This document shows, piece after piece, positions 1,886 through 61,469 of a DNA stretch of 64,000 nt. Below the pieces are notes generated by a model. That model was not told the origin of the DNA and searched no databases. It saw only the letters and a program-made list of their open reading frames with translations. The stretch comes from Somniosus microcephalus (taxonomy: Eukaryota). The stretch's first letter is position 1. The number at the start of each line of letters is the position of its first letter. A program made the position numbers and the translations under genes. The stretch spans positions 9,424,001 to 9,488,000 of the forward strand of contig CM126219.1 of assembly GCA_052327205.1 (NCBI GenBank), read 5' to 3'.

Positions 1886-2440
1886 TGTCAGCCATGGCTC
1901 AGTGGGCAGCACTCTCACCCAAGTCAGAAGGTCGTGGGTTCAAGTCCCGCTCCAGAGACTGGAGCACCAAGAAAATAAATCTAGGCTGACACTCCCGGCG
2001 CAGTGCTGAGGGAGGTTCTGCCTTTCGGGTCAGACGTTAAACTGAGGCCCCATCTGGGAAGTAAAAGATCCCACGGCACTATTTTGAAGACGAGCAGGGG
2101 AGTTCTCCCCGGTGTCCTGGGGCCAAATTTTATCCCTCAATCAACATCACTAAAACAGATTATCTGCTCATTATCTCTGCTGTCTGTGTGAAAATTGGCT
2201 GTGGCATTTTCTACATTACAAATAGTGACCAACGACCCCGCTAAAGTGGTCAGGAAGTCCCGCGCAGGCCACTCACCGGCTTTTATATGGGAGAAACCGC
2301 GCGCGCGTGAAAATTTGAATGTGCCGTGCAGCCAGTTAAAGGGACCATGCACCAAAAAACAAGAGAACACGTTGACAGTGACTACACTTCAAAAGTACAT
2401 TAGTTGGGACGTCCTGAGGCACTATATAAATGCAAGTGCT
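1886..2440 (+). mobile_element. SacSINE1-like DeuSINE
   Basis: tRNA head (GGCTCAGTGG, GGTTCAAGTCC) plus the conserved central Deu domain (TTAAACTGAGGCCCC...GATCCC..GCACTATTT). Confidence 0.85.
2230..2374. mobile_element. hAT-like MITE inserted in a SINE
   Basis: Ends CAACG...CGTTG, with an 8-bp TSD ATAGTGAC/ACAGTGAC. Confidence 0.55.
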
Positions 2441-3000: not shown

Positions 3001-3937
3001 GCGATTTGTGCACAGCAAGTTCCCACAAACAGCAATGTGATAATGACCAGATAATCTGTTTTAGTGACGTTGGCTGCGGGATAAATAGGCACCTCAAAGT
3101 ACTGGAGAGGTACCACCAACGCTGCCTCCGCAAGATCCTGCAAATCCATTGGCAGGATAGGCGCACCAACGTCAGTGTTGCTCAGGCCAACATCCCCAGC
3201 ATCGAAGCTTTGACCACGCTCGATCAGCTCCGATGGACGGGTCACATCGTCCGCATGCCCGATACGAGACTCCCAAAGCATGCGCTCTACTCGGAGCTCC
3301 GACATGGCAAGAGAGCCCCAAGTGGGCAGAGGAAACGCTTCAAGGACACCCTCAAAGCCTCCTTGAAAAAGTGTAACATCCCCACCGACACCTGGGAATC
3401 CCTGGCCCAAGACCGCACAAAGTGGAGGAGAAGCATCCGGGAAGGGGGCTGAACACCACGAGTCTCTTCGCCGGGAGCAAGCGGAAGCCAAGCGCAGGCA
3501 GCGCAAGGAGCGCACGTCAACCCAAGCACCCCACCCACCCGCCCCTTCAACCACCGTCTGCCCCACCTGTGACAGAGACTGTAGGTCCCGCATTGGACTC
3601 ATCAGTCACCCAAGAACTCATTTTTAATGTGGAAGCAAGTCATCCTCGGTTCCAAGGGACTGCCTAAGAGGAGAAATATTGGCCCCAGGACACCGGGGAG
3701 AACTCCCCGGCTGCTCTTCGACATAGTGCCCTGGGGATCTTTTACATCCACCCGAGGGCAGACGGGACCTCGGTTTAACGTCTCATCCGAAAGATGGCAC
3801 CTCAGACAATGCAGCGCTCTCTTAGCACTGCACGGAGTGTCAGCCTAGATTTCTGAGCTCAGGTCTTCAGTGGGGCTTGAACCCACGACCTTCTGCCTCA
3901 GAGGCGAGGAAGCAACCCACTGAGCCACAACCGACAC
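3001..3937 (-). mobile_element. SacSINE1-like DeuSINE hosting an RTE insertion
   Basis: SINE sequence on both sides of 3088-3673. Confidence 0.85.
3088..3673 (+). mobile_element. RTE LINE 3' fragment (same family as 13748-16500)
   Basis: Encodes ERYHQRCLRKILQIHWQDRR...; 3' end is GGACTGCCTAAGAGGAG; flanked by an AAATA duplication. Confidence 0.92.
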
Positions 3938-4584
3938 CGGACATTGCTCAGTGAGTAACAGTCGTATCGACCACAAAGGTCCCAGGTTCAATCCCTGGTT
4001 GGCCAGGGTTGATAGAGATAGACAGACACACACCCGGTAAGGAAATGACAGGGGGCTAGCTGTGATGCCCTTGCAGTCGAATAGCCTGCTGACCCTTGCT
4101 GTTGAAGCTCACACATGAACGGCCAGCTAGGCAACAGAGGGTTGCTGGTGACTGCAGCAATAAGTCAATACCTTCAGGAAAGGAAGGGAGTGAATGGGCA
4201 AGGTTATAATATTTTAACAAGTTAAGAATACACAAGCATCTGTGTAACACAGGGCTTTGTATCTACATGAGCAGCAAAGTATTGAAACACAATGGAAGCT
4301 TAAAGTGTTGTTAGCCGAGAAGGTGGGGTCAGGTTCATTTTCTCTGGACTGAGCACCAGATTGTAGAACTGCCCCATTTGCAACTTGTATTTATATCACG
4401 CATTTAGCGTATGAAAACATCCCAAGGTGCTTCACGGGAGCACAATCAGGCAAAAATTGACTCCGAGCCAAAAAGGGAAATCTATGAGGAGGGGTGACGA
4501 AAAACTTGGGTCAAAGGCGTAGGTTTTAAGGAGCACCTTAAAAGAGGAAGAGCGAGGGAGGTTCGGGAAGGGAATTCCCAACAA

Positions 4585-4908
4585 CAGGAAACTTTGGTTT
4601 ATCCGGAGGTTAATTGTCCGGAATGCTCGAGCCGCTGGCAAAATTCAGGAGTCGGTTCAGTAAGTTTTTTTTCTTTTCGTTGCTTTTTTTCCCCACCAGT
4701 CAGGCTCTGCAAGGTCTAGCTAAAGCTGTTGCTTAGCTACAGAGACGCTTGCAAGCTACGGCCGACTGTTTAGAAGCTGTTGCTAAGCAACAGGGTTTGT
4801 TGCTAGGTACGGAGCTCATGTTTTAACATTAGCGCTGGTTTGTCCGGCAGTTTTGATGGGACGGCAACAGCTCGGTCCCGTCAGTGCCGGATAGCACAAA
4901 GTTTCCTG
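4585..4908. mobile_element. Tc1/mariner(pogo)-type MITE, copy 1
   Basis: TIRs CAGGAAACTTTG...CAAAGTTTCCTG with a flanking TA on the right. Confidence 0.75.
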
Positions 4909-5289
4909 TAGCTTCCTCAAATATGATTTACTGAAAATATCCTATTGCCCACATTTACTGCAAATACAACCTAACCTTACCGCAAAGAACTGTTGACTAG
5001 CCCTCGGGGGTCAAAGGCTGTAATATGGCCAGCTTTAATACGTACATGACTACCAGGCGGCATGAACAGTAAAAGGCGGGCAAAAATATTTCAACAAATT
5101 GTACTTGTGATGGAACAGAAAAGAGTACATGTGCTATCAACGAGTGTGCAGAGATTGCACAATACTCAAGGGGGCTAACAGATGGAGTCCATGGAGATGC
5201 CCTTCCCGAATCTCAGACAGGAGCAATAGCTTCTATTTGCTCTAATGGAATGGCAGGCAGTCTCGGCTAGAAGAGGTCAATTATACTTA

Positions 5290-5625
5290 ACTTGCATTTA
5301 TATAGCGCCTTTAACGTAGTAAAACATCCCAAGGCGCTGCACGGGAGAGTTATGAAACAAAAGTTGGCACCAAGCCACATAAGGAGACAGGTAACCAAAA
5401 GCTCGGAGAGGGGTCGGTTTTAAGGAGAGTCTTAAAAGGAAGAGAGGTGCAGAGAGGTTTAGGGAGGGCATTCCAGAGCTTAGGGCCCAGGCAGCTGAAG
5501 GCTACCAATGGAGGGGACGAATGAAACCGGAGATGCACAAGGCCAGAGCTGGAGGAGCGCAGAGATCTCGGAGGATTGTGGGGCTGGAGGAGTTTGTGGG
5601 AGGAAGGCCAGGAGGGCGTGGGAAT
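5290..5625 (-). mobile_element. L2 3' end (other copies at about 4380-4582, 25140-25650 and 53775-54090)
   Basis: Shared terminal sequence GCATTTATATAGCGCCTTTAACGTAGTAAAAC. Confidence 0.75.
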
Positions 5626-5924
5626 AGTCAATGATTAATTATCAGGTAGAAGTTTCCTTTAAGATGCAAAGGTTCTGGGACACACAAGGGTTTTTTTTCA
5701 ATTGAAACCACTTCCTCTCAACAGTAATTTCTTCACTAATGACAATCACAGTAAAAAAGCTCCAGCCTTCGACAGCAACGACATCTCATTGAGGCATCCC
5801 ACATCAATAGGTTGTACAACCGTGGCTCCAGGATTATTTCCACACGGTTTCTACGACAATTGCTAACAATTCAAAACACAGTATTTGGCAGTTTACTCCA
5901 AAGCACACCGGTGAAGAACAGTTA

Positions 5925-6393
5925 CGAACATACGAATTAGGAGCAGGAGTAGGCCACTCGGCCCCTTGGGCCTGCTCCGCCATTGAATAAGATCATGGCT
6001 GATCTGATTACTCCACATTCCCGCCTACCCCGATAACCTTTCACCCCCCCTCGCTTATCAAGAATCTATCTACCACTGCCCTAAAAATATTCAAAGACTC
6101 AGCTTCCACCGCCCTCCGAGGAAGAGTTCCAAAGACTCACGACCCTCTGAGAAAAAAATTCTCCTCATCTCTGTCTTAAATGGGCGACCCCTTATTTTTA
6201 AACAGTGACCCCTCGTTCTAGATTCTTCCACAAGAGGAAACATCCGCTCCACATCCACCCTGTCCAGACCCCTCAAGATCTTATATGTTTGAATCAAGTC
6301 ACCTCTTACTCTTCTAAACTCCGGTGGATACAAGCCTAGCCTGTGCCACCTTTCCTCATGAGACAACCCGCCCATTCCAGGTATTAGTCTAGT
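5925..6393 (-). mobile_element. CR1 3' fragment
   Basis: ORF 6091-6375 is a CR1 C-terminus, followed by the tail. Confidence 0.85.
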
Positions 6394-6734
6394 TTCTCAA
6401 TGTTTCTGGAGTTAGCAATGCTGGAAGGCAAGCCCACGTCTGGGGTACTTGCACTGGGAGTTTACATTTTTGCACTTTGAAAATTGAGGGAAGCGAAGAG
6501 AACTTTCAAACCTGCTGTTGCTCTCTGCCAGCAGCAGAGGGAATTGGATCTGCCCCCCCCGCACCCTTATTTGCAGCTTTCACACCGTCACCATTCTATT
6601 TTACAACACGAGGAAGTAACCAAATGGTAGGATTTGAGAAATCCAAAGAGAAATGAAGACGACACCACCCAGCGAGGCTGCACCTCGAGCAGGAAGACTC
6701 CAGTTAATCTCTGGCTGCACAGAGTTCACCGAAT

Positions 6735-7160
6735 TCTCGCTGGAGTTTAGAAGAATGAGAGGGGATCTCATTGAAACTTATAAAATTCTAACAGGACTAG
6801 ACAGACTAGATGCAGAAAGGATGTTCCCGATGGCAGGGGGAGTCCAGAACCAGGGGTCGTCCAGAACCAGGGGTCACAGTCTAAGGATAAGGGGTAAGCC
6901 ATTTAGGACAGAGATGAGGAGAAATTTCTTCACCCAGTGAGTGGTGAACCTGTGGAATTCTCTACCACAGAAGGCAGTTGAGGCCAATTCATTAAATATA
7001 TTCAAGAAGAAGATAGATATATTTCTTATGGCTAAAGGGATCAAGGGATCTGGAGAGAAGGCAGGGACCATGTACTGAATTTGGATGATCAGCCATGATC
7101 GCATTGAATGGCGGAGCAGGCTCGAGGGGCCGAATGGCCAACTCCTGCTCCTATCTTCGA
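6735..7160 (+). mobile_element. CR1 3' fragment
   Basis: Encodes EFRRMRGDLIETYKIL, followed by the tail stem-loop. Confidence 0.85.
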
Positions 7161-7241
7161 TGAATTCAGCCAGGGTAGCGACAACCTCTGGAACCACAGC
7201 CCATCAGAAGAGGGATTAATAGAGGGGGAAAATTACAAGTA

Positions 7242-7564
7242 CAGGAAACTTTGGTTTATCCGGAGGTTAACTGTCCGGAATGCTCGATCCACCAGCAAAA
7301 TTCAGGAGTCGGTTCAGTAAGTTTTTTTTTCTTTTCGTTACTTTTTTTCCACCAGTCAGGCTCTGCAAGGTCTAGCTAAAGCTGTTGCTTAGCTACAGAG
7401 ACGCTCGCAAGCTACGGCCGACTGTTTAGAAGCGCAACAGGGTTTGTTGCTAGATACGGAGCTCAAAAGCTCCGTATGTTAACATTAGCACTGGTTTGTC
7501 CGGCAGTTTTGATGGGACGGCAACAGCTCGGTCCCGTCAGTGCCGGATATCACAAAGTTTCCTG
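7242..7564. mobile_element. Tc1/mariner(pogo)-type MITE, copy 2
   Basis: Same TIRs, TA on both sides, and near identical to copy 1. Confidence 0.8.
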
Positions 7565-8184
7565 TAGATCTAAATAAAAGGCTTTGTGCCATCTTCACTC
7601 CTATACATGTTTCCACAACACTCTACATTTATTTAACAACACTGCATTTATATAGCGCCTTTAAATGTAATAAAACATCTCAAGGCACTTCACAATAGTA
7701 GTAATTTTTGGGTGATACTATATAGCCGAAAACTTCCATGCAATAAAATCAGTCAGAACTTGGCATCTACAAATCTGAGCTTGCACAGAAAGACAAAAAT
7801 AGTTTACATGCAAAGGAGAAGATTGCAAGGAACGATTTGGTTGCCACACAGGAAATGCATCTGGAGGAAGGCTTCACAAGCAACTTAAGGTTTTTCCCAC
7901 TCTCAAGTGGTTGATGCAGTGAGTGATAGATATAAGATCTAACAGAACTCGCTCAAACAGATTTGAATAAAAGTGGCTTGGGTATCAGAACCCATCACTA
8001 CAATCACCAAAACTAAAGAGAGTCAGATTTAAATTACTTTTGAAATGAGATTGCAACCAAACTTCACTCAACACTGACAGCAGTTGAGTACACCAATACA
8101 AAGAAGCACCACTACCACTGCCAACAAGCAGCAGTCTCCAGGGCCGGGTACAACATACGTACCAGGCACACTAAACCATTGTAA

Positions 8185-9220
8185 TGTCAGCGGTGGCTCA
8201 GTGGGCAGCACCCTCGCCTCGGAGTCAGAAGGTTGTGGGTTCAAGTCCCACTCCAGAGACTTGAACACAAAGTCTAGGCCGACACTCCAGGGCAGTAACT
8301 GAGGGAGCGCTGCACTGTCGGAGGTGCCGTCTTTCGGATGAGATGAAAAACCGAGGCCCCATCTGACACCTCAGGTGGATGGAAAAAGATCCCATGGCAC
8401 TATTTCAAAGAGCAGTGTCCTGGGCAATATTCATCCCTCAATCAACATCACAAACAGATTATCTGATCATTATCACGTTGCTGTTTGTGGGAGCTTGCTG
8501 TGCACAAATTGGCTGCCACGGATCCAGCTACAACAGTGACCGCACTTCAAAAGTACTTCATTGGCTGTAAAGCACTTTGGGATATCCTGAAACATAGAAG
8601 ATAGGAGTGGGCCATTCGGCCCCTCGAGCCTGTTCCGCCATTCAATGCGATCATGGCGGATCATCCAAATTCAGTACCCTGTCCCTGCTTTCTCCCCAGA
8701 TCCCATGATCCCCTTAGCCTCAAGAAATATATCTAACTCCTCCTTCAAAATATTTAATGAATTGGCCTCAACTGTCTTCTGTGGTAGAGAATTCCACAGG
8801 TTCACCACTCTCTGGGTGAAGAAATTCCTCATCTCTGTCCTAAATGGCTTACCCCTTATCCTGTGACCCCTGGTTCTGGACTTCCCCGACCATCGGGAAC
8901 ATCCTTCCTGCATCTAGTCCTGTTAGAATTTTATAAGTTTCAATGAGATCCCCTCTCATTCTTCTAAATTCTAGTGAATATAAGCCTAATCGACCCAATC
9001 TCTCTTCATACGTCATTCCTGCCATCCCAGGTATCAGTCTGGTGAATCTTCGCTGCACTCCCTCCATGGCAAGAACATCCTTCCTCAGATAAGGCGACCA
9101 AAACTGCACACAATACTCAAGGTGTGGTCTCACCAAGGCCCTGTACAACTGCAGCAAGACATCCTTGCTCCTGTACTGAAGTCGTGAAAGGCGCTATAGA
9201 AATGCAAGTCTTTCTTTCTT
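8185..9220 (+). mobile_element. SacSINE1-like DeuSINE hosting a CR1 insertion
   Basis: Head at 8185, tail at 9179-9220. Confidence 0.85.
8592..9178 (-). mobile_element. CR1 3' fragment inserted into a SacSINE1
   Basis: Encodes LYRALVRPHLEYC; flanked by a CTGAA duplication, with the SINE resuming at 9179. Confidence 0.88.
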
Positions 9221-9929
9221 GCTGGTATTAACGTATATACCAGGCATCCTAAATCATGTACATTTGCTGCATGCTTTTCTCGGCTGTATCGGTGTGGCCA
9301 AGCAGAACGACGCCACCTTGCTCTGACAACCAACCGCCCCCTGCCCCCACCCCACCACAAACACATCAGAGTCGGAGTCGGACGAGCCGAAGCCTGCAGA
9401 CTGGTTACTCGCAGTTTTTGCACAGCACAAGGGGAAAAAAAGTTAACTGCGAAAAGTTCATTCCCACACAAAAAGAAAGCCTATGTGAAGACTGATTGAA
9501 CAGGATTACAAGGAAGTCACTGCAACTGAGTTGAGCTCCACCCTTTCTAGTTAAGTTTGACAGATTAGTCTGGCTGGGGGAGGGGGAAGACAGGCATGGT
9601 CTTGATACCTAATCATTTCCTAGTTCTCTCCCCACCACCCCAAATGCTATTTCAATTCAGCTAGCTGCAACATGAGACTAGGGATATGACATATACAGAC
9701 TGAATCATAAGAGCTATAGGACAAATACTTAAATTAAAATCCACAAATGCTGGAATGTTGAAACTACAAGAACAGAAAATGTTTCATGACAAGAAAACTA
9801 GGCAAATCTTTTAACTTAAAGCAGGCTTTCTAGCAGCGAAAGGCTGCTTTAAGTTAAAGATTTGCAGTGAACACAGCCTCAATGTGCGAACAGAACTTAG
9901 GTGAGAGAGAGTTAAGTGTGCAAAGCCCC

Positions 9930-12750
9930 CTAGTGCATGAGCAGGCAGACCCCCTGTGAATGGACACAACTCCTGCCCAGTGTGAGAGCAGTCAGTGTGC
10001 ACTGACTCCTGGCGAATGTGCACAGTCCCAGTGTGAGAGTAGTGTGCTCAGATATCTGGTGAGTGTGCTTGGACCCTGCTGAGTGCGCACAACCCCTATG
10101 TGAGCAGTCAATATGCACTAACATCATCAAGTGAGTGTGCACAAAACCCCAGTGTGAGCACTGAGTGTGCGCAGACCCCCCAGAGAGAGCGCAGTGAGTG
10201 AGCGCAGACCCCCAGCGTGTGAGCAGTGAGCGTGCGCAGACCCCCAGCGTGTGAGCAGTGAGCGTGCGCAGACCCCCAGCGTGTGAGCAGTGAGCGTGCG
10301 CAGACCCCCAGCGTGTGAGCAGTGAGCGTGAGCAGACCCCAGTGTGTGAGCAGTGAGCGTGCGCAGACCCCCAGTGTGTGAGCAGTGAGTGTGCACAGAC
10401 CCCCAGTGTGTGAGCAGTGAGTGTGCACAGACCACCAGTGTGTGAGCAGACCCCCAGTGTGTGAGCAGTGAGTGTGAGCAGTCCCCGGGCTGGGTGTGAG
10501 CAGAGAGTCTGCACAGACCCCCAGTGTGTGAGCAGTAAATGTGAGCAGACCCCCAGTGTGTGAGCAGTGAGTGTGCACAGACCCCCAGTGTGAGCAGCGA
10601 GTGTGAGCAGACCCCCAGTGTGTGAGCAGAGAGAGTGTGCGCAGACCCCAGTGTGTGAGCGAGTGTGAGCAGACCCCCAGTGTGTGAGCAGCGAGTGTGA
10701 GCAGACCCCCAGTGTGTGAGCAGCGAGTGTGAGCAGACCCCCAGTGTGTGAGCAGTGAGTGTGCGCAGACCCCCAGTGTGTGAGCAGCGAGTGTGCACAG
10801 ACCCCCAGTGTGAGCAGCGAGTGTGAGCAGACCCCCAGTGTGTGAGCAGAGAGAGTGTGCGCAGACCCCAGTGTGTGAGCGAGTGTGAGCAGACCCCCAG
10901 TGTGTGAGCAGCGAGTGTGAGCAGACCCCCAGTGTGTGAGCAGCGAGTGTGAGCAGACCCCCAGTGTGTGAGCAGTGAGTGTGCGCAGACCCCCAGTGTG
11001 TGAGCAGCGAGTGTGAGCAGACCCCCAGTGTGTGAGCAGCGAGTGTGAGCAGACCCCCAGTGTGAGCAGTGAGTGTGAGCAGACCCCCAGTGTGAGCAGT
11101 GAGTGTGAGCAGACCCCCAGTGTGTGAGCAGTGTGTGAGCAGACCCCCAGCGTGAGCAGTGAGTGAGAGCAGACCCACAGCGTGAGCAGTGAGTGTGAGC
11201 AGACCCCCAGCGTGTGAGCAGTGAGTGTGAGCAGACCCCCAGTGTGTGAGCAGTGAGTGTGAGCAGACCCCCAGTGTGTGAGCAGTGAGTGTGAGCAGAA
11301 CCCCAGCGTGTGAGCAGTGAGCAGACCCCCAGCGTGTGAGCAGTGAGTGTGAGCAGACCCCCAGCGTGTGAGCAGTGTGAGCAGACCCCCAGCGTGTGAG
11401 CAGAGAGTGTGAGCAGACCCCCAGTGTGTGAGCAGTGAGTGTGAGCAGACCCCCAGTGTGTGAGCAGTGAGTGTGAGCAGACCCCCAGTGTATGAGCAGT
11501 GTGAGCAGTGAGTGTGAGCAGACCCCCAGTGTGAGCAGTGAGTGTGAGCAGACCCCCAGTGTATGAGCAGTGTGAGCAGTCCCCCAGTGTGTGAGCAGTG
11601 AGTGTGAGCAGACCCCCAGTGTATGAGCAGTGTGAGCAGTGAGTGTGAGCAGACCCCCAGCGTGTGAGCAGAGTGTGAGCAGACCCCCAGTGTGTGAGCA
11701 GTGAGTGTGAGCAGACCCCCAGTGTGAGCAGTGAGTGTGAGCAGACCCCCAGTGTGTGAGCAGTGTGAGCAGTGAGTGTGAGCAGACCCCCAGTGTGAGC
11801 AGTGAGTGTGAGCAGACCCCCAGTGTATGAGCAGTGTGAGCAGAGTGTGAGCAGACCCCCAGTGTGAGCAGTGAGTGTGAGCAGACCCCCAGTGTGTGAG
11901 CAGTGAGTGTGAGCAGACCCCCAGTGTGTGAGCAGAGTGAGCAGACCCCCAGTGTGTGAGCAGTGAGTGTGAGCAGACCCCCAGTGTGTGAGCAGTGAGT
12001 GAGCAGACCCCCAGTGTGTGAGCAGTGAGTGTGAGCAGACCCCCAGTGTGAGCAGTGAGTGTGAGCAGACCCCCAGTGTGAGCAGTGAGTGTGAGCAGAC
12101 CCCCAGTGTATGAGCAGTGAGTGTGAGCAGACCCCCAGTGTGTGAGCAGTGAGTGTGAGCAGACCCCCAATGTGAGCAGACCCCCAGTGTGTGAGCAGTG
12201 TGTGAGCAGACCCCCAGTGTGTGAGCAGAGAGTGTGAGCAGACCCCCAGTGTGTGAGCAGTGAGTGTGAGCAGACCCCGTGTGTGAGCAGTGAGTGTGAG
12301 CAGACCCCCAGTGTGTGAGCAGAGAGTGAGCAGACCCCCAGTGTGTGAGCAGTGTGAGCAGTGAGTGTGAGCAGACCCCCAGTGTGTGAGCAGACCCCCA
12401 GTGTGTGAGCAGTGAGTGTGAGCAGACCCCCAGTGTGTGAGCAGTGAGTGAGCAGACCCCCAGTGTATGAGCAGTGTGAGCAGTGAGTGTGAGCAGACCC
12501 CCAGTGTGTGAGCAGTGAGTGTGCGCAGACCCCCAGTGTGTGAGCAGTGAGTGTGAGCAGACCCCCAGTGTGTGAGCAGTGAATGTGCGCAGACCCCCAG
12601 TGTGTGAGCAGTGAGTGTGAGCAGACCCCCAGTGTGTGAGCAGTGAGTGTGAGCAGTCCCCCAGTGTGTGAGCAGTGAGTGTGAGCAGTCCCCCAGTGTG
12701 TGAGCAGTGAGTGTGAGCAGTCCCCGGGCTGGGTGTGAGCAGAGAGTCTG
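9930..12750. repeat. Minisatellite (~32-bp unit) in CAPZA intron 1
   Basis: Unit GAGCAGACCCCCAGTGTGTGAGCAGTGAGTGT with length variants; degenerates toward 9930. Confidence 0.95.
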
Positions 12751-13038
12751 CGCGGTTGGGGAAGTTGCGCGAAGGGTCTGAAGTTTAAGGCCGGGGCCCC
12801 GGGAGTGGGGGGTCCAGCGGGGCCGGGAGGAGACCGGAGACCGGAGTCCGGAGTCCGGAGACCCTCCCCCGGCCCGGCCCCAGCCCGAGGGCGCCCCAAG
12901 TGACAGGCGACGGCCCCAGTCCCTACCCCACCCGGGTTGCCGGAGCTCCCCCAGCCCGGCGGTGCACTGGGCCGGCGCGGAGGCTCGTGAACCGCGGTCT
13001 CGGGTAGCCGGCGGGCCGGGCCGGGCTCGGCCTCTCAC

Positions 13039-13077
13039 CTTCTCGCGGTCCGACAGCTGCTCCTCCGCGTTCGCCAT
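13039..13077 (-). CDS. CAPZA1: F-actin capping protein alpha subunit, coding exon 1 (CAPZA1 by synteny); intron 1 runs off the left of the window
   Basis: Encodes MANAEEQLSDREK (cf. human CAPZA2 MADLEEQLSDEEK, CAPZA1 MADFDDRVSDEEK). It is 39 nt, followed by a phase-0 donor AAG|GTGAGA, with Kozak context AAGATGG, inside a CpG island. Exon 2 (VRIAAKF...) was not found in 1-13038. The paralogue is assigned from the head-to-head arrangement with ST7L. Confidence 0.85.
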
Positions 13078-13121
13078 CTTGATCCAGCCCGCCGCCCCGG
13101 CCGCACCGCATCATGGCAGCG

Positions 13122-13355
13122 GCCGCCGCTCATTGGACGGGCCGCAGCCCCAACCCACCGCTCATTGGACGGGGCTGAGCCCCCAACCCGCCGCTCATTG
13201 GACGGGCCGGAGCTCCCAACCCGCCGCTCATTGGACGGGCCGGAGCCCCAACCCGCCGCTCATTGGACGGGGCTGAGCCTCAACCCTCCGCTCATTGGAC
13301 GGGGCTGAGGCTTCACCCGTCGCTCATTGGACGGGCCGGAGCCCCAACCCGCCGC
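13122..13355 (-). promoter_or_regulatory. Tandem array of 7 CCAAT (NF-Y) boxes with a 32-33 bp period
   Basis: GCTCATTGGACGG (CCGTCCAATGAGC on the gene strand) with CATTGG at 13131, 13163, 13196, 13229, 13261, 13293 and 13325. Confidence 0.8.
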
Positions 13356-13481
13356 ACTGCGCCGCCCTATCGCGCTGCGGGGGTACTGCAGGGCATCTGG
13401 CAGTGCTCCGGCACCTCACTGGATACAGCAGCACGATGTTCAATCAGAGCACCACTGCACCAGAGCCAGGCACAGAGTGGG

Positions 13482-16400
13482 TCAGCCGGGCCTCAGTGGC
13501 CAGCACTCTCGCCTCTGAGTCAGGAATGTTGTGGTTTCATTGTCCCACTCCAGGGATTTGAGCACATAAAGCTAGGCTGACACTCCCAGTGCAGTACTGA
13601 GGGAGCGCTGCACTGTCGGAGGTGCCGTCTTTCGGATGAGACGTTAAACCGAGGTCCCGTCTGCTCTCTCAGGTGGACGTAAAAGATCCCATGGCACTAT
13701 TTTGAAGAAGAGCAGGGGAGTTCTCCCTGATGTCCTGGCCAAGATTTCTCTCTTCTCTCTCTTAGGCAGTCCCTTGGAACCGAGGATGACTTGCTTCCAC
13801 ATTAAAAATGAGTTCTCAGGTGGCTGATGAGTCCAATGTGGGACCTACAGTCTCTGTCACAGGTGGGGCAGACGGTGGTTGAAGGGGCGGGTGGGTGGGG
13901 TGCTTGGGTTGACGTGCGCTCCTTGCGCTGCCTGTGCTTCGCTTCCGCTTGCTCCCGGCGAAGAGACTCGAGGTGTTCGGCGCCTTCCCGGATGCATCTC
14001 CTCCACTTTGTGCGGTCTTGGGCCAGGGATTCCCAGGTGTCGGTGGGGATGTTGCACTTTTTCAAGGAGGCTTTGAGGGTGTCCTTGAAGCATTTCCTCT
14101 GCCCACCTGGGGTTCTCTTGCCGTGCCGGAGCTCCGAGTGGAGCGCTTGTTTTGGGAGTCTCGTATCGGGCATGCGGACAATGTGACCCATACATCGGAG
14201 CTGATTGAGCATGGTCAGCGCTTTGATGCTGGGGATGTTGGCCTGAGCAAGAACACTGACGTTGGTGCACCTATCCTGCCAATGGATTTGCAGGATCTTG
14301 CGGAGGCAGCATTGGTGGTACCTCTCCAGTGCTTTGAGGTGCCTGCTGTACATGGTCCATGTCTCTGAGGCATACAGCAGGGCAGGTATCACTGCTGCCC
14401 TGTAGACCATGAGCTTAGTGCCGGGTTTGAGGTCCTGGTCTTCAAACACTCTCTTCCTCAGGCGACCGAAGGCTGCACTGGCACACTGAAGGCGGTGTTG
14501 GACTTCATCGTTGACGTCTGCCCTTGTTGGCAGTAGGCTCCTGAGGTATGGAAAGTGGTCCACATTGTCCAAGGCCTTGTCGTGGATTTTGATAATCGGG
14601 GGGCAGCACTGTGTGGCGGGGGCAGGTTGGTAGAGGACCTTTGTCTTACGGATGTTTAGTGTAAGGCCCATGCTCTCGTATGCTTATGTGAAGGTGTTTA
14701 CGATGGTTTGGAGTTCGGCCTCCGAGTGAGCGCAGACGCAAGCATCGTCTGCATACTGTAATTCAACGACAGAGGATGGGACGACCTTGGATCTGGACTG
14801 GTGGCGCCGGAGGTTGAACAGTTTCCCGTTTGTTCTGTAAATTAGCTCCACTCCAGTGGGGAGCTTACTGAGGGTGAGATGGAGCATTGCAGCAAGGAAG
14901 ATTGAGAAGAGCGTTGGTGCGATGACACAGCCTTGCTTGACCCCGGTTTGTACGTGAATTGGGTCTGTGGTGGAACCGTTGGTCAGGATCATGGCTTGCA
15001 TGTCGTCGTGAAGCAGGCAGAGGATAGTGACAAACTTTTGAGGGCAGCCGAATTTGAGGAGGACACTCCATAATCCCTCATGGTTGACAGTGTCGAAGGC
15101 CTTTGTGAGATCAAAGAAGGCCATGTACAGCGGTTGGTGCTGTTCCCTGCATTTCTCTTGTAATTGATGTGCGGTGAAGATCATGTCCATTGTGCCCCTT
15201 AGTGGGCGGAATCTGCTTTGCGACTCTGGGAGGAGCTCTTCGGCCACTGGGAGAAGGCGATTGAGGAGGATTCTTGTGATGACTTTCCCTGTGGCAGATA
15301 GCAGGGAAACTCCTCTGTAATTACCGCAATCAGACCTGTCACCTTTCTTGAAGATGGTCACAATTACGGCGTCTCTGAGATCCCCTGTCATGCTCTCCTC
15401 CTTCCAGATAAGAGAAATGAGTTCATGAATTCGCGCCAGTAGTTCTTCTCCGCCATGCTTTAGTGCCTCGGCGGGGATTCCATCTGCTCCTGAGGCCTTG
15501 TTGTTCTTCAGTTGTCGGATGGCCTTTTCAACCTCATGCTGGGCTGGGGTTGTGCTGAGATGGTGGTGGGTAGCATGCTGTGGGATGGAGTTGAGGACAC
15601 TCGTGTCGAAGACAGAGTCGTGGGTAAGGAGATCTTTGAAGTGCTCCTTCCAGCGGGCACTGACTGCTTCCCTGTCCTTGATGAGTACCTCTCCGTTCTT
15701 GGCTCGCAGTGGGGAAGGGCCTTGGGTGCTTGGGCCGTAGATGGTCTTGACTGCGCTAAAGAATCCACACACGTCGTGGTTGTCAGCTAGCTGCTGGATC
15801 TCCTGCGCTTTCTCCTCCCACCATCTGTTCTTTAGGTCGCAAGTTTTTTGTTGGACCTCGGCCTTCAGGCTTCTGTAGAGCTGCTTTCTTGCTCTTGAGT
15901 TCTGTTGCTGTTTCCAGATCAGAAATGCCTTGTGCTTGTGGCTTATTAGCTCCTGGATCTCCTGGTCATTCTCGTCGAACCAGTCTTGGTGTTTCCTGGT
16001 TGAGTGATCGAGCGTCTCTTCACAGGTGCTGATTATGGAGGCCTTGAGTGCAGACCAGACACTGTGGGTACTCTGTGTCTCTGCATCACTGGGAGTCGTC
16101 AGGTTGTTTGTGAGGCGCAGGCTGAATAGGGCTTTCTTAGTGGGGTCTTTGAGTGCTCCAGCGTTAATTTTCCTGTGGCATTTTTTCTGTTGCTGCCGTT
16201 GTTTTGGGGCTACATTGATGGAGATGACAGAGCAGATTAGGCGGTGGTCTGTCCAGCAGTCATCAGCTCCTGTCATGGCGCGGGTGATGCGGACGTCCTT
16301 GCGGTCCCTCGCTCGGACGATGACGTAGTCCAGCAGATGCCAGTGCTTGGAACGAGGGTGCTGCCATGAAGCCTTGTACTTGTCTCTCTGACGGAACAAG

Positions 16401-16712
16401 GTGTTGGCTATGACGAGGCCATGTTCTAAGCATTTCGACAGGAGGAGGGTACTGTTGGAGTTGGCTTCACCTACCCCATCTCTGCCAATCACACCTCTCC
16501 AGATTTATCCCTCAACCAACATTACTAAAAAACAGATGATATGGTCTTTATCACATTGCTGTTTGTGGGAGCTTGCTGTGCGCAAATTGGCTGCTGCGTT
16601 TCCTACATTACAACACAGTGACTACACTTCAGAAAGTACTTCATTGGCTGTAAAGCGCTTTCGAGTGTCCAGTGGTCGTAAAAGGCGCTATAGCAATGCA
16701 AGTCTGTCTTTT
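13482..16712 (+). mobile_element. SacSINE1-like DeuSINE hosting an RTE insertion
   Basis: SINE halves at 13482-13747 and 16501-16712. Confidence 0.85.
13748..16500 (-). mobile_element. RTE-clade (BovB-like) LINE, 5'-truncated, young
   Basis: ORF 14684-16492 carries the endonuclease C-terminus (WQHPRSKHWHLLDYV, WTDH) and RT (GVKQGC, YADD). It continues in frame at 13802-14671 after a single TAA, ends in a C2H2-like motif (CPTC...HLRTH), and has an (AG)n tail. Confidence 0.93.
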
Positions 16713-21630: not shown

Positions 21631-21924
21631 AAAAAAGATCCCATGGCACTATTTCAGGTGTCCTGGCCAATATTTATTCCTCAATCAACATAACAAAAAC
21701 AAATTTTCTGATCATTATCACATTGCTGTTTGTGGGAGCTTGCTGTGTGCAAATTGGCTGCCGTGTTTCCCAGATTACAACAGTGATTACACTTCAAAAC
21801 TACTTAATTGGCTGTAAAGCGCGTTGAGACGTCCGGTGGTCGTGAAAGGCGCTGTATAAATGCAAGTCTTTCTTTTTCAACCCTTGGTGTATTTACTATG
21901 TTAAAGGTGCTATATTGTTCGTTT

Positions 21925-24413: not shown

Positions 24414-24980
24414 TGTCAGCCGTGGCTCAGTGGGCAGCACCCTCGCCTCTGAGTCAGAAAGGTCGTGGGTTCAAGTCCCGCTCCAGAGACTTGAGCACAA
24501 AACTCTAGGCTGACACTCCCAGTGCAGCGCTGAGGGAGTGCTGCAGTGTCAGAGGAGCCGTCTTTCAGATGTGATGTTAAACCGAGGCCCAGTCTGCCCT
24601 CTCAGGTGGACGTAAAAGATCCACTATTTCAAAGAAGAGCAGGGGAGATTTAGAATCATAGAAATTTACGGCACAGAAGGAGGCCATTCGGCCAATCGTG
24701 TCTGTGGTGGCCGAAAAAGAGCTCTCCAGGCAAATCCCACTTTCCAGCTCTTGGTTCTCCCGGTGTCCTGGCCAATATTTATCCCTCAACCAACATCACT
24801 AAAAAAAAAACCCAGATTATCTGGTCATTATCACTTGTTTGTGGGAGCTTGCTGTGCGCAAATTGGCTGCCGCCTTTCCTACATTACAACAGTGACAACA
24901 CTTCAAAAATACTTCATTGGCTGTAAAGCGTTTTAGGAGTCCTGAGATTGTGAAAGGCGCGGTAGAAATACAAATCTCCC
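24414..24980 (+). mobile_element. SacSINE1-like DeuSINE with a short CR1 tail inserted (about 24650-24752)
   Basis: Head, Deu domain and tail are all present. Confidence 0.85.
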
Positions 24981-25661: not shown

Positions 25662-26350
25662 AGAAAGAAAGACTTGCATTTCTATAGCACCTTTCACAAC
25701 CACCGGACGTCTCACAGAATCACAGAAACCTCACAGTGCAGATAGAGGCCATTTCGGCCCATCGAGCCTGCACCGACACATATCCCACCCGATCCCCGTA
25801 AACCCTACACCAACACATATCCCACCCTATCCCCGTAACCCCACGTATTTAATCCCCCTAACACTAAGGGTCAATTTATCATAGCCAATCAACGTAACCC
25901 GCACATCTTTGGACTGTGGGAGGAAACCGGAGCACCCGAAAGCACTTTACAGCCAATGAAGCACTTTTTAAAGTGCAGTCACTGTTGTAATGTGGGTAAC
26001 GTGGCAGCCAATTTGCGCACAGCAAGCTCCCACAAACAGCAATGTGATAATGACCTGTTTTTGTTATGTTGGTTGAGGGATAAATATTGGCCCAGGACAC
26101 CAGGGATAACTCCCCTGATTTTCTTCGAAATAGTGCCATGGAATCTTTTACGCCAACCTGAAAGAGCAGACGGGGCCTGGGTTTAACGTCTTATCTGAAA
26201 GGCGGCACCTCCGACACTGCAGCACTCCCTCAGCACTGCACTGGAGTGTCAGCTGAGATTTTTGTGCTCAAGTCTCTGGAGTGGGACTTGAACCCACAAC
26301 CTTCTGACTCAAGAGGAGAGAGTGCTACCCACTGAGCCACAGCTGACACA
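25662..26350 (-). mobile_element. SacSINE1-like DeuSINE with a partial HE1 inserted (25713-25938)
   Basis: Reverse-complement match to the other copies. Confidence 0.85.
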
Positions 26351-28712: not shown

Positions 28713-29170
28713 TGTCAGTCGTGGCTCAGTGGTTTGCACCCTCGCCTCCGAGTCAGAAGCCACTCCAGAGACATGAACACAAAAATCTAGGCTGACACTC
28801 CAGTGCAGTACTGAGGGAGTGCTGCACTGTCAGAGGTGCCGTCTTTCGGATGAGACATTAAACCGAGCCTCCGTCTGCCCTCTCGGGTGGACGTAAAAAA
28901 TCCCACTGCACTATTTCGAAGATGAGTTAGGGGAGTTCTCCCCAAGTGTCCTGCGGCCAATATTTATCACTCAATCAACATCACTAAAACAGATTATCTG
29001 GTCATTATCACATTGCTGTTTGTGGGAGCTTGCTGTGTGCAAATTAGCTGCCGCGTTTCCTACATTACAACAGTGACTACACTTCAAAAAGTACTTCATG
29101 CTTTAAAGCGCTTTGGGACATCTGGTGGTTGTGAAAGGCGCCTTAGAAATGCAAGTCTTTTTTTTCTTTC
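28713..29170 (+). mobile_element. SacSINE1-like DeuSINE
   Basis: Near full-length match to the other copies. Confidence 0.85.
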
Positions 29171-32770: not shown

Positions 32771-33634
32771 CCCAGCCACTAGGGGCACTGCACCATCCCG
32801 CCACTAGGGGCACTGCACCACCCAGCCACTAGGGGCACTGCACCATCCCGCCACTAGGGGCACTGCACCACCCAGCCACTAGGGGCGCTGCACCACCCAG
32901 CCACTAGGGGCGCTGCACCACCCAGCCACTAGGGGCGCTGCACCACCCAGCCACTAGGGGCGCTGCACCATCCTGCCACTAGGGGCGCTGCACCACCCAG
33001 CCACTAGAGGCACTGCACCACCCAGCCACTAGGGGCACTGCACCACCCAGCCACTAGGGGCGCTGCACCACCCAGCCACTAGAGGCACTGCACCACCCAG
33101 CCACTAGGGGCACTGCACCACCCAGCCACTAGGGGCGCTGCACCACCCAGCCACTAGGGGCGCTGCACCACCCAGCCACTAGGGGCGCTGCACCACCCAG
33201 CCACTAAGGGCGCTGCACCACCCAGCCACGAGGGGCACTGCACCATCCCGACACTAGGGGCACTGCACCACCCAGCCACTAGAGGCACTGCACCACCCAG
33301 CCACTAGGGGCACTGCACCATCCCGCCACTAGGGGCACTGCACCACCCAGCCACTAGGGGAGCTGCACCACCCAGACACTAGAGGCGCTGCACCACCCAG
33401 CCACTAGGGGCGCTGCACCACCCAGCCACTAGAGGCGCTGCACCACCCAGCCACTAGGGGCGCTGCACCACCCAGCCACTAGGGGCGCTGCACCACCCAG
33501 CCACTAGGGGCGCTGCACCACCCAGCCACTAGGGGCGCTGCACCACCCAGCCACTAGGGGCGCTGCACCACCCAGCCACTAGGGGCGCTGCACCACCCAG
33601 CCACTAGGGGCGCTGCACCACCCAGCCACTAGGG
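32771..33634 (+). repeat. 25-bp minisatellite, left arm (~34 units)
   Basis: Unit CCCAGCCACTAGGGGCGCTGCACCA. Confidence 0.95.
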
Positions 33635-33904: not shown

Positions 33905-34536
33905 AGTGGCTGGGTGGTGCAGTGCGCCCCTAGTGGCAGAATGGTGCAGTGCCCCTAGTGGCTGGGTGGGTGCAGTGCCCCTAGTGGCTGGGTAGGTGTA
34001 GTGCCCCTAGTGGCAGGATGGTGCAGTGCCCCTAGTGGCAGGATGGTGCAGTGCCCCTAGTGGCTGGGTGGTACAATGCCTCTAGTGGCGGGATGGTGCA
34101 GTGTCTTTAGTGGTGGGATGGTGCAGTGCCCCTCGTGGCAGGATGGTGCAGTGCCCCTAGTGGCAGGATGGTGCAGTGCCCCTAGTGGCAGGATGGTGCA
34201 GTGCCCCTAGTGGCTGGGTGGTACAATGCCTCTAGTGGCGGGATGGTGCAGTGCCTCTAGTGGCGGGATGGTGCAGTGCCTCTAGTGGCGGGATGGTGCA
34301 GTGCCCCTAGTGGTGGGATGGTGCAGTGCCTCTAGTGGCGGGATGGTGCAGTGCCTCTAGTGGCGGGATGGTGCAGTGCCCCTAGTGGCAGGATGGTGCA
34401 GTGCCCCTAGTGGCGGGATGGTGCAGTGCCTCTAGTGGCGGGATGGTGCAGTGCCTCTAGTGGCGGAATGGTGCAGTGCCCCTAGTGGCGGGATGGTGCA
34501 GTGCCCCTAGTGGCTGGGTGGTGCAGTGCCCCTAGT
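33905..34536 (-). repeat. 25-bp minisatellite, right arm (~25 units), inverted relative to the left arm
   Basis: Unit CCCCTAGTGGCRGGATGGTGCAGTG is the reverse complement of the left-arm unit family. Confidence 0.95.
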
Positions 34537-40366: not shown

Positions 40367-40802
40367 ACATAAAAAGACTTGCATTTCTATAGCGGCTTGC
40401 ATGACCACCGGAAGTCTCAAAGCGCTTTACAGCCAATGAAGTACTTTTTGAAATGTAGTCACTGTTGTAATGTGGGAAACGCAGCAGCCAATTTGCGCAC
40501 AGCAAGCTCCCACAAGCAGCAACATGATAATGACCAGATAATCTGTTTTAGTGATGCTGATTGAGGGATAAATATAAGCCCCAGGACACCGGGGAGAACG
40601 CCCCTGCTCTTCTTCAAAATAGTGCCATGGGATCTTTTATATGCACCTGAGAGAGCAGATGGGGCCTCGGTTTAATGTCTCATCCGAAAGACGGCACCTC
40701 CAACAGTGCAGCACACCCTCATCACTGCACTGGAGTGTCAGCCTAGCTTTTGTGCTCAAGTCTCTGGAGTGGGACTTGAACCCACAGCCTTCTGACTCAG
40801 AG

Positions 40803-41447: not shown

Positions 41448-42084
41448 CTTCTGACTCAGAGGCGAGGGTGCTGCCCACTGAGCCACAGCTGACAGACAAT
41501 ACATTGCACGGGTCCGCGACCTTGTTCTGTTACTGCAAATAAAATCATTACACGTCATTAGCACTCTCCTTTCTGAATTCAGAGTGTGAAGGCTATGTTA
41601 GGAGGCACAGTAAGTTGTGTGGATGGGAGCAGGAAGTTACCAACGGACACAGACAGATTAAGTGAGTGGGCAACGCTTTAGCAGATAAGAGTTCAATGTG
41701 GGGAAAGTGTGAGGACGTGCACTTTGGATTCAAGAATGACAAATCAGAATATTTTTAAAATGGCGAGAGACTAGGAACTGTGGAGGAGGAAAGAGATTTG
41801 GGTGTCCAAGTACACAAATCACTAAAAGCTAGTGCACAGGTGTAAAAACCGAGGCACCGCCTGCCCTCTCAGGTGGACGTAAACGATCACATGGCACTAT
41901 TTCGAACAGGAGCAAGGGTGTTCTCCCTGGTGTCTTGGCCAATGCTTTCCCCACAACTAACATCATAAACAGATTATCTGGTCGTTAGCACATTACTTGT
42001 TTATGGGACCTTGTTGTGCGCAAATTGACTGCCGCGCCAATTGATTGCAAAGCACTTTGGAACTTCCTGAAATCGGGAAAGGTA

Positions 42085-46230: not shown

Positions 46231-46239
46231 CACAGGGTG

Positions 46240-51875: not shown

Positions 51876-52335
51876 TGTCAGTCGTGGCTCAGTGAATAGC
51901 ACTCTTTCTCGCCTCTGAGTGGGTTCAAATCCCACTCCAGAGACTTGAGCATATAATGCAGGCTGACACTCCCAGTGCAGTGCTGAGGGAGTGCTGCACT
52001 GCCGGAGGCGCTGTCTTTTGGAAGAGATGTTGAACTGAGGCCCCGTCTGCCCTCTCAGGTGGACATTATAGATCCCATGGCACTATTTCGAAGAAGAGCA
52101 GGGAGTTCTCCCCGGTGTCCTGGGACCAATATTTATCCCTCTATCAACATCACTAAAACAGATGATCGGGTCATTATCACATTGCTGTTTATGGGAGCTT
52201 GCTGTGCGCAAATTGGCTGCCGCGTTTCCTACATTACAACAGTGACTACACTTCAGAAAGTACTTCATTGGCTGTAAAGTGCTTTGGGGCGTCCTGAGGT
52301 CGTGAAAGGCGCTGGAGAAATGCAAGTCTTTTTTT
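51876..52335 (+). mobile_element. SacSINE1-like DeuSINE
   Basis: Near full-length match to the other copies. Confidence 0.85.
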
Positions 52336-60312: not shown

Positions 60313-60704
60313 GAAAAAAGACTTGCATTTCTATAGCGCATTTCACAACCTCAGGACATCCCAAAGCATTTTACAGCCAATGAAGGACTTTTTGAAGGGC
60401 AGCCACTGGCTACTGCGTTTCCTACATTACAACAATCTGCGCACAGCAAGGTCCCACAAACAGCAATGTGATAATGATCAGGTAATCGGTTTTCGTGATG
60501 TTGTTGGAGGGATAACTATGGGATCTTTTGTGTCCAGCTGAGAGAGCGGACGGGGCCTCAGTTTAATGTCTCAGCTGAAAGACGGCACCTCCAACAGTGC
60601 AGCACTCCCTCAGCACTGCACTGGAGTGTCAGCCTAGATTATGTGCTCAGGTCTTGGAGTGGGACTTGAGGCGAGAGTGCTACCCACTGAGCCACGGCTG
60701 ACAC
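60313..60704 (-). mobile_element. SacSINE1-like DeuSINE (further partial copies at about 41846-42075, 60880-61220 and 63951-64000)
   Basis: Matches the other copies. Confidence 0.8.
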
Positions 60705-61469
60705 AGGGAAATGTCACCTACTAAGCTGATTGCTCGGAATATCGGTTGACTGTGTTGTGGATGGGGAATGAATACAACTCTAATGAATGTGGAATGTGTT
60801 GACATCAGAAACTTCTGCAGTCACAAAGCTTTGAAAGCGATACGTAGGGGGCAGTGGTGCCCTTTCAACTCTATCACTGAATCAGACAGTGTTGGTTCCC
60901 ACTCCAGGACTTGAGCACATAATCTAGGCTAACATTTCAATGCAGTACTGAGGGAGTGCTACATTGTCAGACGTGCTGTTTTTTTGGATGAAGCATTAAG
61001 CTGAGGCCCCGTCTGCCTGTTCGGGTGGATGTTAAAAATTCAACCGCACTATTTGAGGGAGAGCAGGGAAGTTCCTCCAGCGTCCTGGCCACCAAAACAA
61101 ATTAACTGGTCATTCATCCCATTGCTGTTTGTGTGACCTTGTGTGTAAATTACTGCTGCGTTTGTCTACACAACAACTGTGAAGCACTTTCACATGTTCT
61201 TCGGACAGGAAAGGCACTACAGTATATAGAGTCAATAGTCAAAACATAAACATAGAAGATAGGAGCAGGAGTAGGCCATTTGGCCCTTCGAGCCTGCTCC
61301 GCCACTCAACGAGATCATGGCTGATCATCCAAACCCTAGCACCCGGTCCCTACACCGACAGCCATCCCACCCAAGCCCTATCCCCGTAACCCCACGTATT
61401 TAATCCCCCCTAACACTAAGGGTCAATTTTTATCATGGCCAATCAACCTAACCCGCACATCTTTGGATG

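What the first reader, a model, noticed from the sequence alone, without database searches (positions are those of the whole stretch)
3078..16510. Both RTE LINE copies are inserted at the identical nucleotide of a SacSINE1, in the same relative orientation
Seen: copy 1 reads GGGATAAATA|RTE 3088-3673...GCCTAAGAGGAG|AAATATTGGCC. Copy 2 (minus strand) reads GGGATAAATCT|RTE...GCCTAAGAGAGAGAAGAGAG|AAATCTTGGCC. Both are antisense to the SINE, both tails join at the same AAAT, and each has its own short TSD. Their lengths differ (about 0.6 kb vs 2.75 kb 5' truncation), which argues for independent insertions rather than duplication. These are the only two RTE copies I found in 64 kb. Known: sequence-specific targeting of multicopy repeats is established for R2, R1 and Tx1-clade LINEs, while RTE elements are generally considered non-specific. 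Inference: this RTE family may target, or strongly prefer, a site in an abundant DeuSINE as a safe harbour. The sample is only two.
Basis: partly seen in the sequence, partly recalled or inferred. Interest (0 to 1): 0.72.

Follow-up and report, generated by a model that had tools for sequence, protein, structure and literature searches.

The report
RTE retrotransposon hotspot inside shark SINE
Two separate copies of a jumping gene from a group thought to insert almost anywhere landed at the same spot, facing the same way, inside two copies of a common short repeat, which hints at an unrecognised target preference but rests on only two events.

Summary
The only two RTE-like LINE copies in the window (3088-3673 +, 586 bp; 16500-13748 -, 2753 bp) sit at the same site (GGGAT^AAAT, within 2 nt) of two copies of a ~460-bp tRNA-headed SINE, both antisense to it, with duplications of at most 5 and 6 bp. 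They are independent insertions: the host SINEs differ at 54 of 338 positions, the RTEs at 30 of 583 (p=9e-8), and 5' ends and tails differ. 2 of 12 such sites are occupied; five non-RTE inserts in this SINE family fall elsewhere. The chance of any homologous-site pair is 2e-5 (uniform), 4e-5 to 3e-3 (soft models of the published RTE 'Tn-TA' preference), and 0.01-0.18 for motifs fitted after the fact. Best reading (0.5): a sharper-than-generic endonuclease and priming preference, for which this SINE position is a high-copy hotspot. Dedicated SINE targeting is 0.2, a coincidence picked out by the scan 0.25. No genomic flanks from elsewhere could be obtained, so n stays 2. The names SacSINE1 and RTE are likely but were not tested against references. 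The 'safe harbour' reading is untested.

The parts
3004..3082 (-). Host SINE 1, part 3' of the site (SINE similarity ends at 3004; tail missing)
3083..3087 (+). Target-site duplication, left copy AAATA (last A also fits the LINE: 1-nt microhomology)
3088..3673 (+). RTE-like LINE copy 1, 586 bp, 5'-truncated; end of ORF with a frameshift near 3450, C2H2 finger region, ~45-nt 3' UTR, tail AAGAGGAG
3674..3937 (-). Host SINE 1, head (A and B boxes) through to the site; 3674-3678 is the right duplication copy AAATA
13478..13747 (+). Host SINE 2, head (degenerate boxes) through to the site; 13742-13747 is the duplication copy at the LINE 3' end (AAATCT on minus)
13748..16500 (-). RTE-like LINE copy 2, 2753 bp, 5'-truncated at about residue 157 of a ~1055-aa ORF; tail AAGAGAGAGAAGAGAG
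14687..16501 (-). ORF part 1 (605 aa): C-terminal part of the APE-type endonuclease, linker and reverse transcriptase (RVT_1 E=4e-33); in-frame stop at 14684-14686
13805..14683 (-). ORF part 2 (293 aa): end of RT region and C-terminal C2H2 finger (weak Pfam zf-C2H2, E=0.04, below the curated cut-off)
16501..16705 (+). Host SINE 2, part 3' of the site; 16501-16506 is the duplication copy at the LINE 5' end
2123..2144 (-). Empty homologous site (coordinates and strand in LINE-sense orientation), SINE copy at 1.9-2.2 kb
8424..8445 (-). Empty homologous site
21667..21688 (-). Empty homologous site
24772..24793 (-). Empty homologous site (exact match to the majority pattern)
26069..26090 (+). Empty homologous site (exact match to the majority pattern)
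28957..28978 (-). Empty homologous site
40557..40578 (+). Empty homologous site
41846..42036 (-). Degenerate SINE fragment holding an empty, diverged site
52126..52147 (-). Empty homologous site in a near-complete SINE (51876-52336) used as ruler: site at nt ~260
60315..60706 (+). SINE copy with an empty, diverged site next to a deletion

Best explanation
Two independent target-primed reverse transcription events by one shark RTE-like family hit a hotspot. The family's APE endonuclease, helped by its A-containing purine tail, prefers a site more sharply defined than the generic RTE signature: a T^AAA(T) step with a T-rich patch one turn upstream (TTGRTT at -13..-8) and probably some of the bases between. 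This SINE position is such a site and the SINE multiplies it, so a sizeable minority of insertions, not all, land there in fixed orientation. Inferred steps: nick on the SINE-sense strand at CCAATATTT^ATCCC; priming by 1-2 terminal T on A of the tail; second nick 4-6 nt away; 5'-truncated cDNA joined through 1-2 nt of microhomology. Shown: junctions, duplications, independence, site counts. Inferred from general LINE biology: nick, priming, and which bases are read.
For: Independent events: hosts differ at 54 of 338 columns, LINEs at 30 of 583, Fisher p=8.9e-8; identity next to the site is not raised (25 of 30 and 32 of 36 columns). Generic models give low odds for any homologous pair: uniform 1.8e-5; T|A 2.4e-4; T|AAA 2.4e-3; six soft TA or Tn-TA weightings 4e-5 to 2.5e-3. 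A moderately longer motif suffices: GAT|AAAT has 27 sites, 7 of them this site, P=0.09; TT at -13,-12 plus T|AAAT has 16 sites, 7 here, P=0.18; at least 4 T in -13..-8 plus T|AAA has 48 sites, P=0.04. The site is the only oriented TAAAT in each of 4 of 4 near-complete SINE copies, against 4-6 TAAA and 28-36 TA per copy. 0 of 5 non-RTE inserts in this SINE family use it (nt ~35, 189, 228, 407, 422 vs 260), so it is not a general fragile spot. T at -1, A at +1 and an A-containing tail fit the published RTE pattern (PMC6007223, PMC13295347).
Against: n=2 from one window, and the motifs that give P above 0.01 were fitted after seeing the site. The strict published signature (TTT near -10) is absent at all 12 sites. 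Both targets are SINE copies, so motif and host cannot be separated here. The endonuclease segment present in copy 2 (SWQHPRSKHWHLLD) is ordinary: 112 of 120 relatives match the pattern. No external flanks were obtained. The number of windows screened at stage one is unknown.
Confidence: 0.5

Rival explanations
1. Coincidence under the generic RTE preference (Tn-TA plus tail priming), picked out because a scan over many windows flags rare coincidences.
For: The site has T|A, AA for tail priming, and 4 of 6 T at -13..-8 in 9 of 12 copies. The SINE fills 8.6-10.4% of the window, and 7 nested inserts lie in its 13 copies. Reviews treat RTE as dispersed or random (PMC13708176 passages; PMC6007223 introduction). 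The endonuclease segment is ordinary.
Against: Per-window probability is only 4e-5 to 3e-3 under soft generic models, and 1e-3 to 4e-2 under hard T-rich variants. Both duplications are unusually and similarly short (at most 5 and 6 bp, against 7-15 bp cited for RTE in PMC6007223).
Confidence: 0.25
2. Dedicated targeting: the family has evolved Tx1/R1-like specificity for a long sequence in this SINE, and most copies lie there.
For: 2 of 2 copies, same site, same orientation, similar short duplication, 2 of 12 sites filled. Transposons are among known targets of site-specific LINEs (PMC4640811 passage). The site lies at about the 3' edge of the conserved Deu domain if the numbering in PMC5499810 carries over (site at ~260-270).
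Against: The papers read name only Tx1 and R1 as site-specific APE clades. No sign of a specialised endonuclease in the part available. The LINE 3' end has no extended match to the target (best 5 nt, against 5-7 nt at control positions). The host sites differ from each other at 5 of the 20 bases upstream and at +5. A 7-8-bp-equivalent motif already explains the data.
Confidence: 0.2
3. One insertion copied to a second SINE by segmental duplication, ectopic gene conversion or retrotransposition of the composite, followed by a deletion in copy 1.
For: The two loci are formally colinear: copy 1 equals copy 2 minus 14345-16502. They are 10 kb apart and inverted.
Against: The host SINEs are much more diverged than the LINEs (p=9e-8). 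They share 4 derived differences in 334 columns, within the 0-9 range of all pairs, and the tree has no supported fork. No similarity extends beyond the SINE. Tails differ. The deletion would have to end within the duplication. T runs of 5 or more on the SINE-sense strand of both LINEs should stop Pol III (inference).
Confidence: 0.03
4. Tethering to the Pol III machinery on the SINE promoter places insertions at a fixed distance, as recalled for Ty3 and the Dictyostelium TRE elements (recalled, not from a call).
For: The host is a tRNA-headed SINE with A/B boxes, and the orientation is fixed.
Against: Head-to-site distance differs (264 vs 270 nt by BLAST-defined head ends) while the base hit is the same. 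The site is ~200 nt downstream of the B box. Host 2 now has degenerate boxes.
Confidence: 0.02

Closest known systems
RTE-clade LINEs with the Tn-TA insertion signature (Bov-B, RTE-1_EC, RTE1_LA, plant RTE; PMC6007223, PMC13295347)
   Same: T before and A at the first duplicated base; A-containing microsatellite-like tail; T-rich patch about one turn upstream; 1-2 nt junction microhomology.
   Different: No TTT run at -10 (TTGGTT or TTGGCT instead); duplications of 4-6 bp rather than 7-15; both copies at one homologous repeat position. Those surveys accepted only duplications of 10 bp or more (stated in PMC6007223), so short-duplication families would have been missed.
Site-specific APE LINEs of the Tx1 and R1 clades that target multicopy sequences, including transposons (PMC4640811 passages; Tx1L-into-Tx1D is recalled)
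   Same: Fixed position and orientation in a multicopy host repeat.
   Different: Different clade; specificity here rests on two copies; no evidence of a long recognised sequence; the target is a dispersed, decaying SINE (copies 72-89% identical).
Shark and other aquatic single-ORF APE+RT elements in protein databases (Heptranchias perlo uncharacterized protein P0237, 77% local identity; Coilia grayii 57%; Branchiostoma 44-46%)
   Same: ~1050-aa single ORF with Exo_endo_phos and RVT_1 and a C-terminal C2H2 finger (52 of 65 relatives of 1000 aa or more).
   Different: No relative close enough to be this family was found over the full length, and none carries flank information (0 of 327 proteins match the SINE at E<1e-4).
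SacSINE1 (DeuSINE of sharks; PMC5499810)
   Same: tRNA-type head with A/B boxes, ~450-460 bp, in a genome whose LINE has its best relative in a shark.

Membership tests
RTE-clade LINE | Single ORF of ~1000-1100 aa with N-terminal APE endonuclease and RT (feature list recalled) | tested here: met
   Copy 2 aligns from residue ~157 to the end of 1022-1056-aa proteins at 53-55%; two such relatives tested score for Exo_endo_phos and RVT_1. The 5' end of this family itself is absent from the window.
RTE-clade LINE | Very short 3' UTR ending in short tandem repeats, no poly(A) | tested here: met
   ~45 nt from stop to an AG/AAGAG-type tail in both copies.
RTE-clade LINE | RT phylogeny groups with named RTE references | not testable with these tools
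   No labelled RTE reference was available; the PDB gave only L1, R2 and group II intron RTs at low scores; CR1/L2-like elements of the window are only 26-33% identical.
RTE with Tn-TA signature | T at -1 and A at +1 of the duplication | tested here: met
   Both sites read GGGAT|AAAT.
RTE with Tn-TA signature | Run of three T about 10 nt upstream | tested here: not met
   No TTT in -13..-8 at any of 12 sites; 3 of 6 T at host 1 and 4 of 6 at host 2.
RTE with Tn-TA signature | Duplication of 7-15 bp | tested here: not met
   At most 5 and 6 bp, against the range cited in PMC6007223.
Site-specific (Tx1/R1-like) LINE | Most genomic copies at one position of a multicopy target | tested here: inconclusive
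   2 of 2 in the window; no external flanks.
Site-specific (Tx1/R1-like) LINE | Endonuclease nicks the target sequence selectively | not testable with these tools
   Needs biochemistry; the endonuclease segment available is the common one.
SacSINE1 / DeuSINE | tRNA-derived head with A and B boxes | tested here: met
   A box in 4 of 6 and B box in 5 of 6 copies scanned with recalled consensus patterns. ARAGORN and Rfam found no tRNA match.
SacSINE1 / DeuSINE | Deu central domain | not testable with these tools
   No consensus obtainable: supplement of PMC5499810 not held, PMC1484453 not held, 0 motif hits in two other supplements.
SacSINE1 / DeuSINE | 3' tail shared with an L2 LINE | not tested
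   No L2-2 reference available.

The most novel reading that the evidence does not exclude
A shark RTE-clade family has independently evolved sequence-specific insertion into a dispersed SINE, at the 3' edge of its conserved Deu domain, filling on the order of one in six available sites. It would be a third APE clade with site-specific members after Tx1 and R1, with a SINE as the target, and with an endonuclease that looks generic in the part examined.
Probability: 0.2. Interest if true: 0.78.

Novelty: new variant of a known kind. Interest (0 to 1): 0.5.

Why it matters
RTE elements are treated as dispersed integrators, and that is how RTE-1_MD is being developed for gene insertion (PMC13708176 passages). 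A natural family with a sharp hotspot or true specificity would show how an APE endonuclease gains selectivity, and would give a compact single-ORF comparison for mapping the determinants. It would also affect nested-transposon dating, which assumes random insertion into hosts, and would predict systematic breakage of this SINE at nt ~260-270 in shark repeat annotations. If chance is the answer, these are two ordinary decayed LINE fragments.

Tried and rejected
External flanks: an antisense ORF of the LINE found 0 proteins among 226 candidates. Sense-frame searches returned 327 listed proteins, 0 of which match the SINE at E<1e-4. Both scans of bacterial and archaeal genome contigs found nothing. 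A third RTE copy at 35202-35336 was rejected. RNA-guided pairing between the LINE 3' end and the target was rejected: best exact match 5 nt, controls 5-7 nt. Special secondary structure was not found: LINE 3' ends z=+1.27 and +0.66; target strand z=-0.48 to +1.29 in 4 of 4 copies. An L1-type TT|AAAA site was rejected (0 of 12). Composite duplication, gene conversion and a general fragile site were rejected as above. Mapping the WxHP segment onto the L1 minor-groove hairpin was attempted, but the printed alignments begin at about L1 residue 230, so that mapping is recalled only. A 20-residue PDB query for the gene starting at 13077 found nothing. Ten literature searches listed no paper whose title or abstract start reports an RTE targeting a SINE; subscription journals and Repbase reports are outside that library.
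Full report
Observation. The window is repeat-rich vertebrate DNA. The best named relative of the LINE is a shark protein (Heptranchias perlo, 77% local identity), so a cartilaginous fish is inferred. A ~460-bp SINE with tRNA-type A/B boxes occurs in 13 copies or fragments. Two are split by the same LINE. Copy 1 (3088-3673, +) is flanked by AAATA at 3083-3087 and 3674-3678. Copy 2 (16500-13748, -) is flanked by AAATCT at 16506-16501 and 13747-13742. Aligned with uninterrupted copies, both insertions fall at GGGAT^AAAT and both are antisense to the SINE. In the pre-insertion window 12 copies carry the homologous position and 2 are filled. No third copy of the LINE exists in the window. Two refinements: the nick is fixed only to within 0-2 nt because the tails contain A/AA next to AAAT; and the duplications may be only AAAT, because the extra bases also fit the LINE.

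The LINE. Copy 2 encodes the last ~900 residues of a single ORF with one in-frame stop: part of an APE-type endonuclease, RT (RVT_1 E=4e-33) and a terminal C2H2 finger. It aligns from residue ~157 to the end of 1022-1056-aa proteins at 53-55%. Two such relatives tested carry Exo_endo_phos and RVT_1, and 52 of 65 relatives of 1000 aa or more end in the same finger. The 3' UTR is ~45 nt with an AG/AAGAG tail. This architecture matches the RTE clade as I recall its definition; no named RTE reference was available for a tree. The two copies differ at 30 of 583 aligned bases, 12 of them CpG-type, so they are younger than their hosts, which differ by about 8-10% from the majority of the other copies.

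Independence. The loci are formally colinear, so a copied composite had to be excluded. The hosts differ at 54 of 338 columns against 30 of 583 for the LINEs (Fisher p=8.9e-8). They share 4 derived differences in 334 columns, inside the 0-9 range of all pairs. A tree of 12 of the 13 copies (the shortest fragment left out) has 0 of 9 supported inner branches. Identity beside the site is 25 of 30 and 32 of 36, so there is no conversion tract. In one search host 2 lacked two bases left of the site through a coordinate slip; gap columns were not counted, and searches use the right coordinates for the null models. Tails and 5' ends differ. Two separate retrotransposition events are therefore well supported.

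How unlikely? I counted homologous oriented position pairs over all dispersed repeats, so the figures are for any such coincidence, not only this site. Uniform insertion gives 1.8-2.7e-5. Hard motifs give T|A 2.4e-4, T|AA 8.6e-4, T|AAA 2.4e-3, T|AAAT 7e-3, AT|AAAT 0.027, GAT|AAAT 0.09, GGAT|AAAT 0.15. RTE elements have a published generic signature, a T run near -10 and T|A at the nick, with the first duplicated base matching the tail (PMC6007223, PMC13295347). Six soft weightings of that kind, with weights I chose, give 4e-5 to 2.5e-3; six hard T-rich variants give 9e-4 to 0.038. The strict TTT form is absent at all 12 sites, though 9 of 12 have 4 T in -13..-8. So the generic signature makes the pair rare per window, whereas a motif worth ~7-8 bases makes it ordinary, because the SINE then supplies 25-45% of all matching sites. 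Those longer motifs were fitted after the fact and are not evidence by themselves.

Internal control. One search listed 42 candidate interruption rows, many redundant or single-support mispairings. Collapsing them by hand, leaves seven inserts in this SINE family: the two LINE copies at nt ~260 of a ruler copy, and five other elements at ~35, 189, 228, 407 and 422. The site is thus not a general weak spot. Nesting into this SINE is common, however, which raises the chance that any insert lies in it. Within the SINE the site is the only oriented TAAAT in 4 of 4 near-complete copies, among 4-6 TAAA steps.

Evidence against dedicated targeting. The endonuclease segment present in copy 2, which I recall as the hairpin that reads the minor groove (mapping not confirmed), matches a pattern found in 112 of 120 relatives. 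The LINE 3' end has no extended similarity to the target. Neither RNA end nor target folds unusually. Head-to-site distance differs by 6 nt between hosts, which favours sequence over a promoter-anchored ruler. One feature points the other way: both duplications are short (4-6 bp) against 7-15 bp cited for RTE, suggesting a defined pair of nicks. The 2018 survey accepted only duplications of 10 bp or more, so such families were outside its view.

What could not be done. No eukaryotic genome collection was available. Attempts to read flanks through chimeric predicted proteins or stray contigs gave nothing. The sample stays at two. The SINE's name could not be checked against a consensus; supplements I could not see, notably those of PMC5499810, may hold the alignment and nesting data that bear on this.

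Papers, as seen. PMC6007223: parts 1-4 of 6 of the whole text (abstract to discussion) and a term search of its supplement with 0 hits. PMC13295347: abstract, Results, and part 1 of 2 of figures and tables. PMC5499810: 12 passages and one Results section. PMC13708176: 12 passages. PMC4640811: 7 passages. PMC13320814: 4 passages. PMC5804259 and PMC5786205: search listing and supplement term searches only. Ten searches listed nothing reporting an RTE that targets a SINE, judged from titles and abstract starts; subscription journals and Repbase reports are not covered. Tx1L/Tx1D, Ty3, TRE and the RTE feature list are recalled.

Verdict. The feature is real and the insertions are independent. My weighing is a judgement, not a computation: with a prior of 1-5% that an RTE family has a sharp preference and likelihoods of ~0.1 against ~0.001, non-generic explanations lead by roughly 1.5:1 to 8:1. 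I put a motif-driven hotspot at 0.5, chance under the generic signature at 0.25, dedicated SINE targeting at 0.2, and copying or Pol III tethering at 0.05 together. It works like a hotspot insertion of a known LINE class; membership of the site-specific class is unproven. One genome-wide flank count would decide. Interest 0.5; 0.78 if dedicated targeting is confirmed.

Noticed in passing
window 13039-13077 (-) and 46334-46487 (+): Two first exons head to head: a 13-codon exon MANAEEQLSDREK followed by GT, which I recall as CAPZA-like (not confirmed), and an ST7/ST7L exon (Pfam ST7 E=1e-7). LINE copy 2 lies ~0.7 kb upstream of the first; copy 1 would be in its first intron, as no second exon was found.
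   Followed up: partly
window 13123-13355: 7.2 copies of a 32-bp unit, each with a CCAAT box on the minus strand, directly upstream of the ATG at 13077 and ~120 bp from the head of host SINE 2.
   Followed up: no
window 40803-41450: A ~640-bp insert in the head of a SINE copy, with 174-bp inverted arms 99% complementary (40835-41008, 41277-41450): a young foldback, MITE-like or inverted LINE fragment.
   Followed up: partly
window 35420-35490: 34-bp inverted repeat with a 3-nt loop at the end of a decayed non-RTE LINE RT segment.
   Followed up: no
window 8583-9180 and 25709-25932: Two non-RTE inserts lie ~7-15 nt apart in SINE coordinates (nt ~407 and ~422), a possible second soft hotspot near the SINE tail.
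   Followed up: partly
window 3073 and 16516 versus the other SINE sites: Both occupied hosts have G at -10; of the 12 sites 4 have G (2 filled) and 8 have another base (0 filled). Chance about 0.09 by hand count; may mark a subfamily or a preferred base.
   Followed up: partly
window 32771-33634 and 33905-34536: Two arrays of the same 25-bp satellite in inverted orientation, 270 bp apart.
   Followed up: no
window 10130-12753, 44039-46240, 46737-49587, 56652-57442: Long GC-rich minisatellites (periods 32, 28, 32/96, 56); the first three lie next to the two first exons and give long spurious ORFs.
   Followed up: no
protein P0237 (H. perlo), residues 30-75: The annotated protein carries a stretch matching the antisense strand of a different LINE (window 35202-35336) inside its endonuclease N-terminus, i.e. 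a chimeric gene model or nested insertion.
   Followed up: partly
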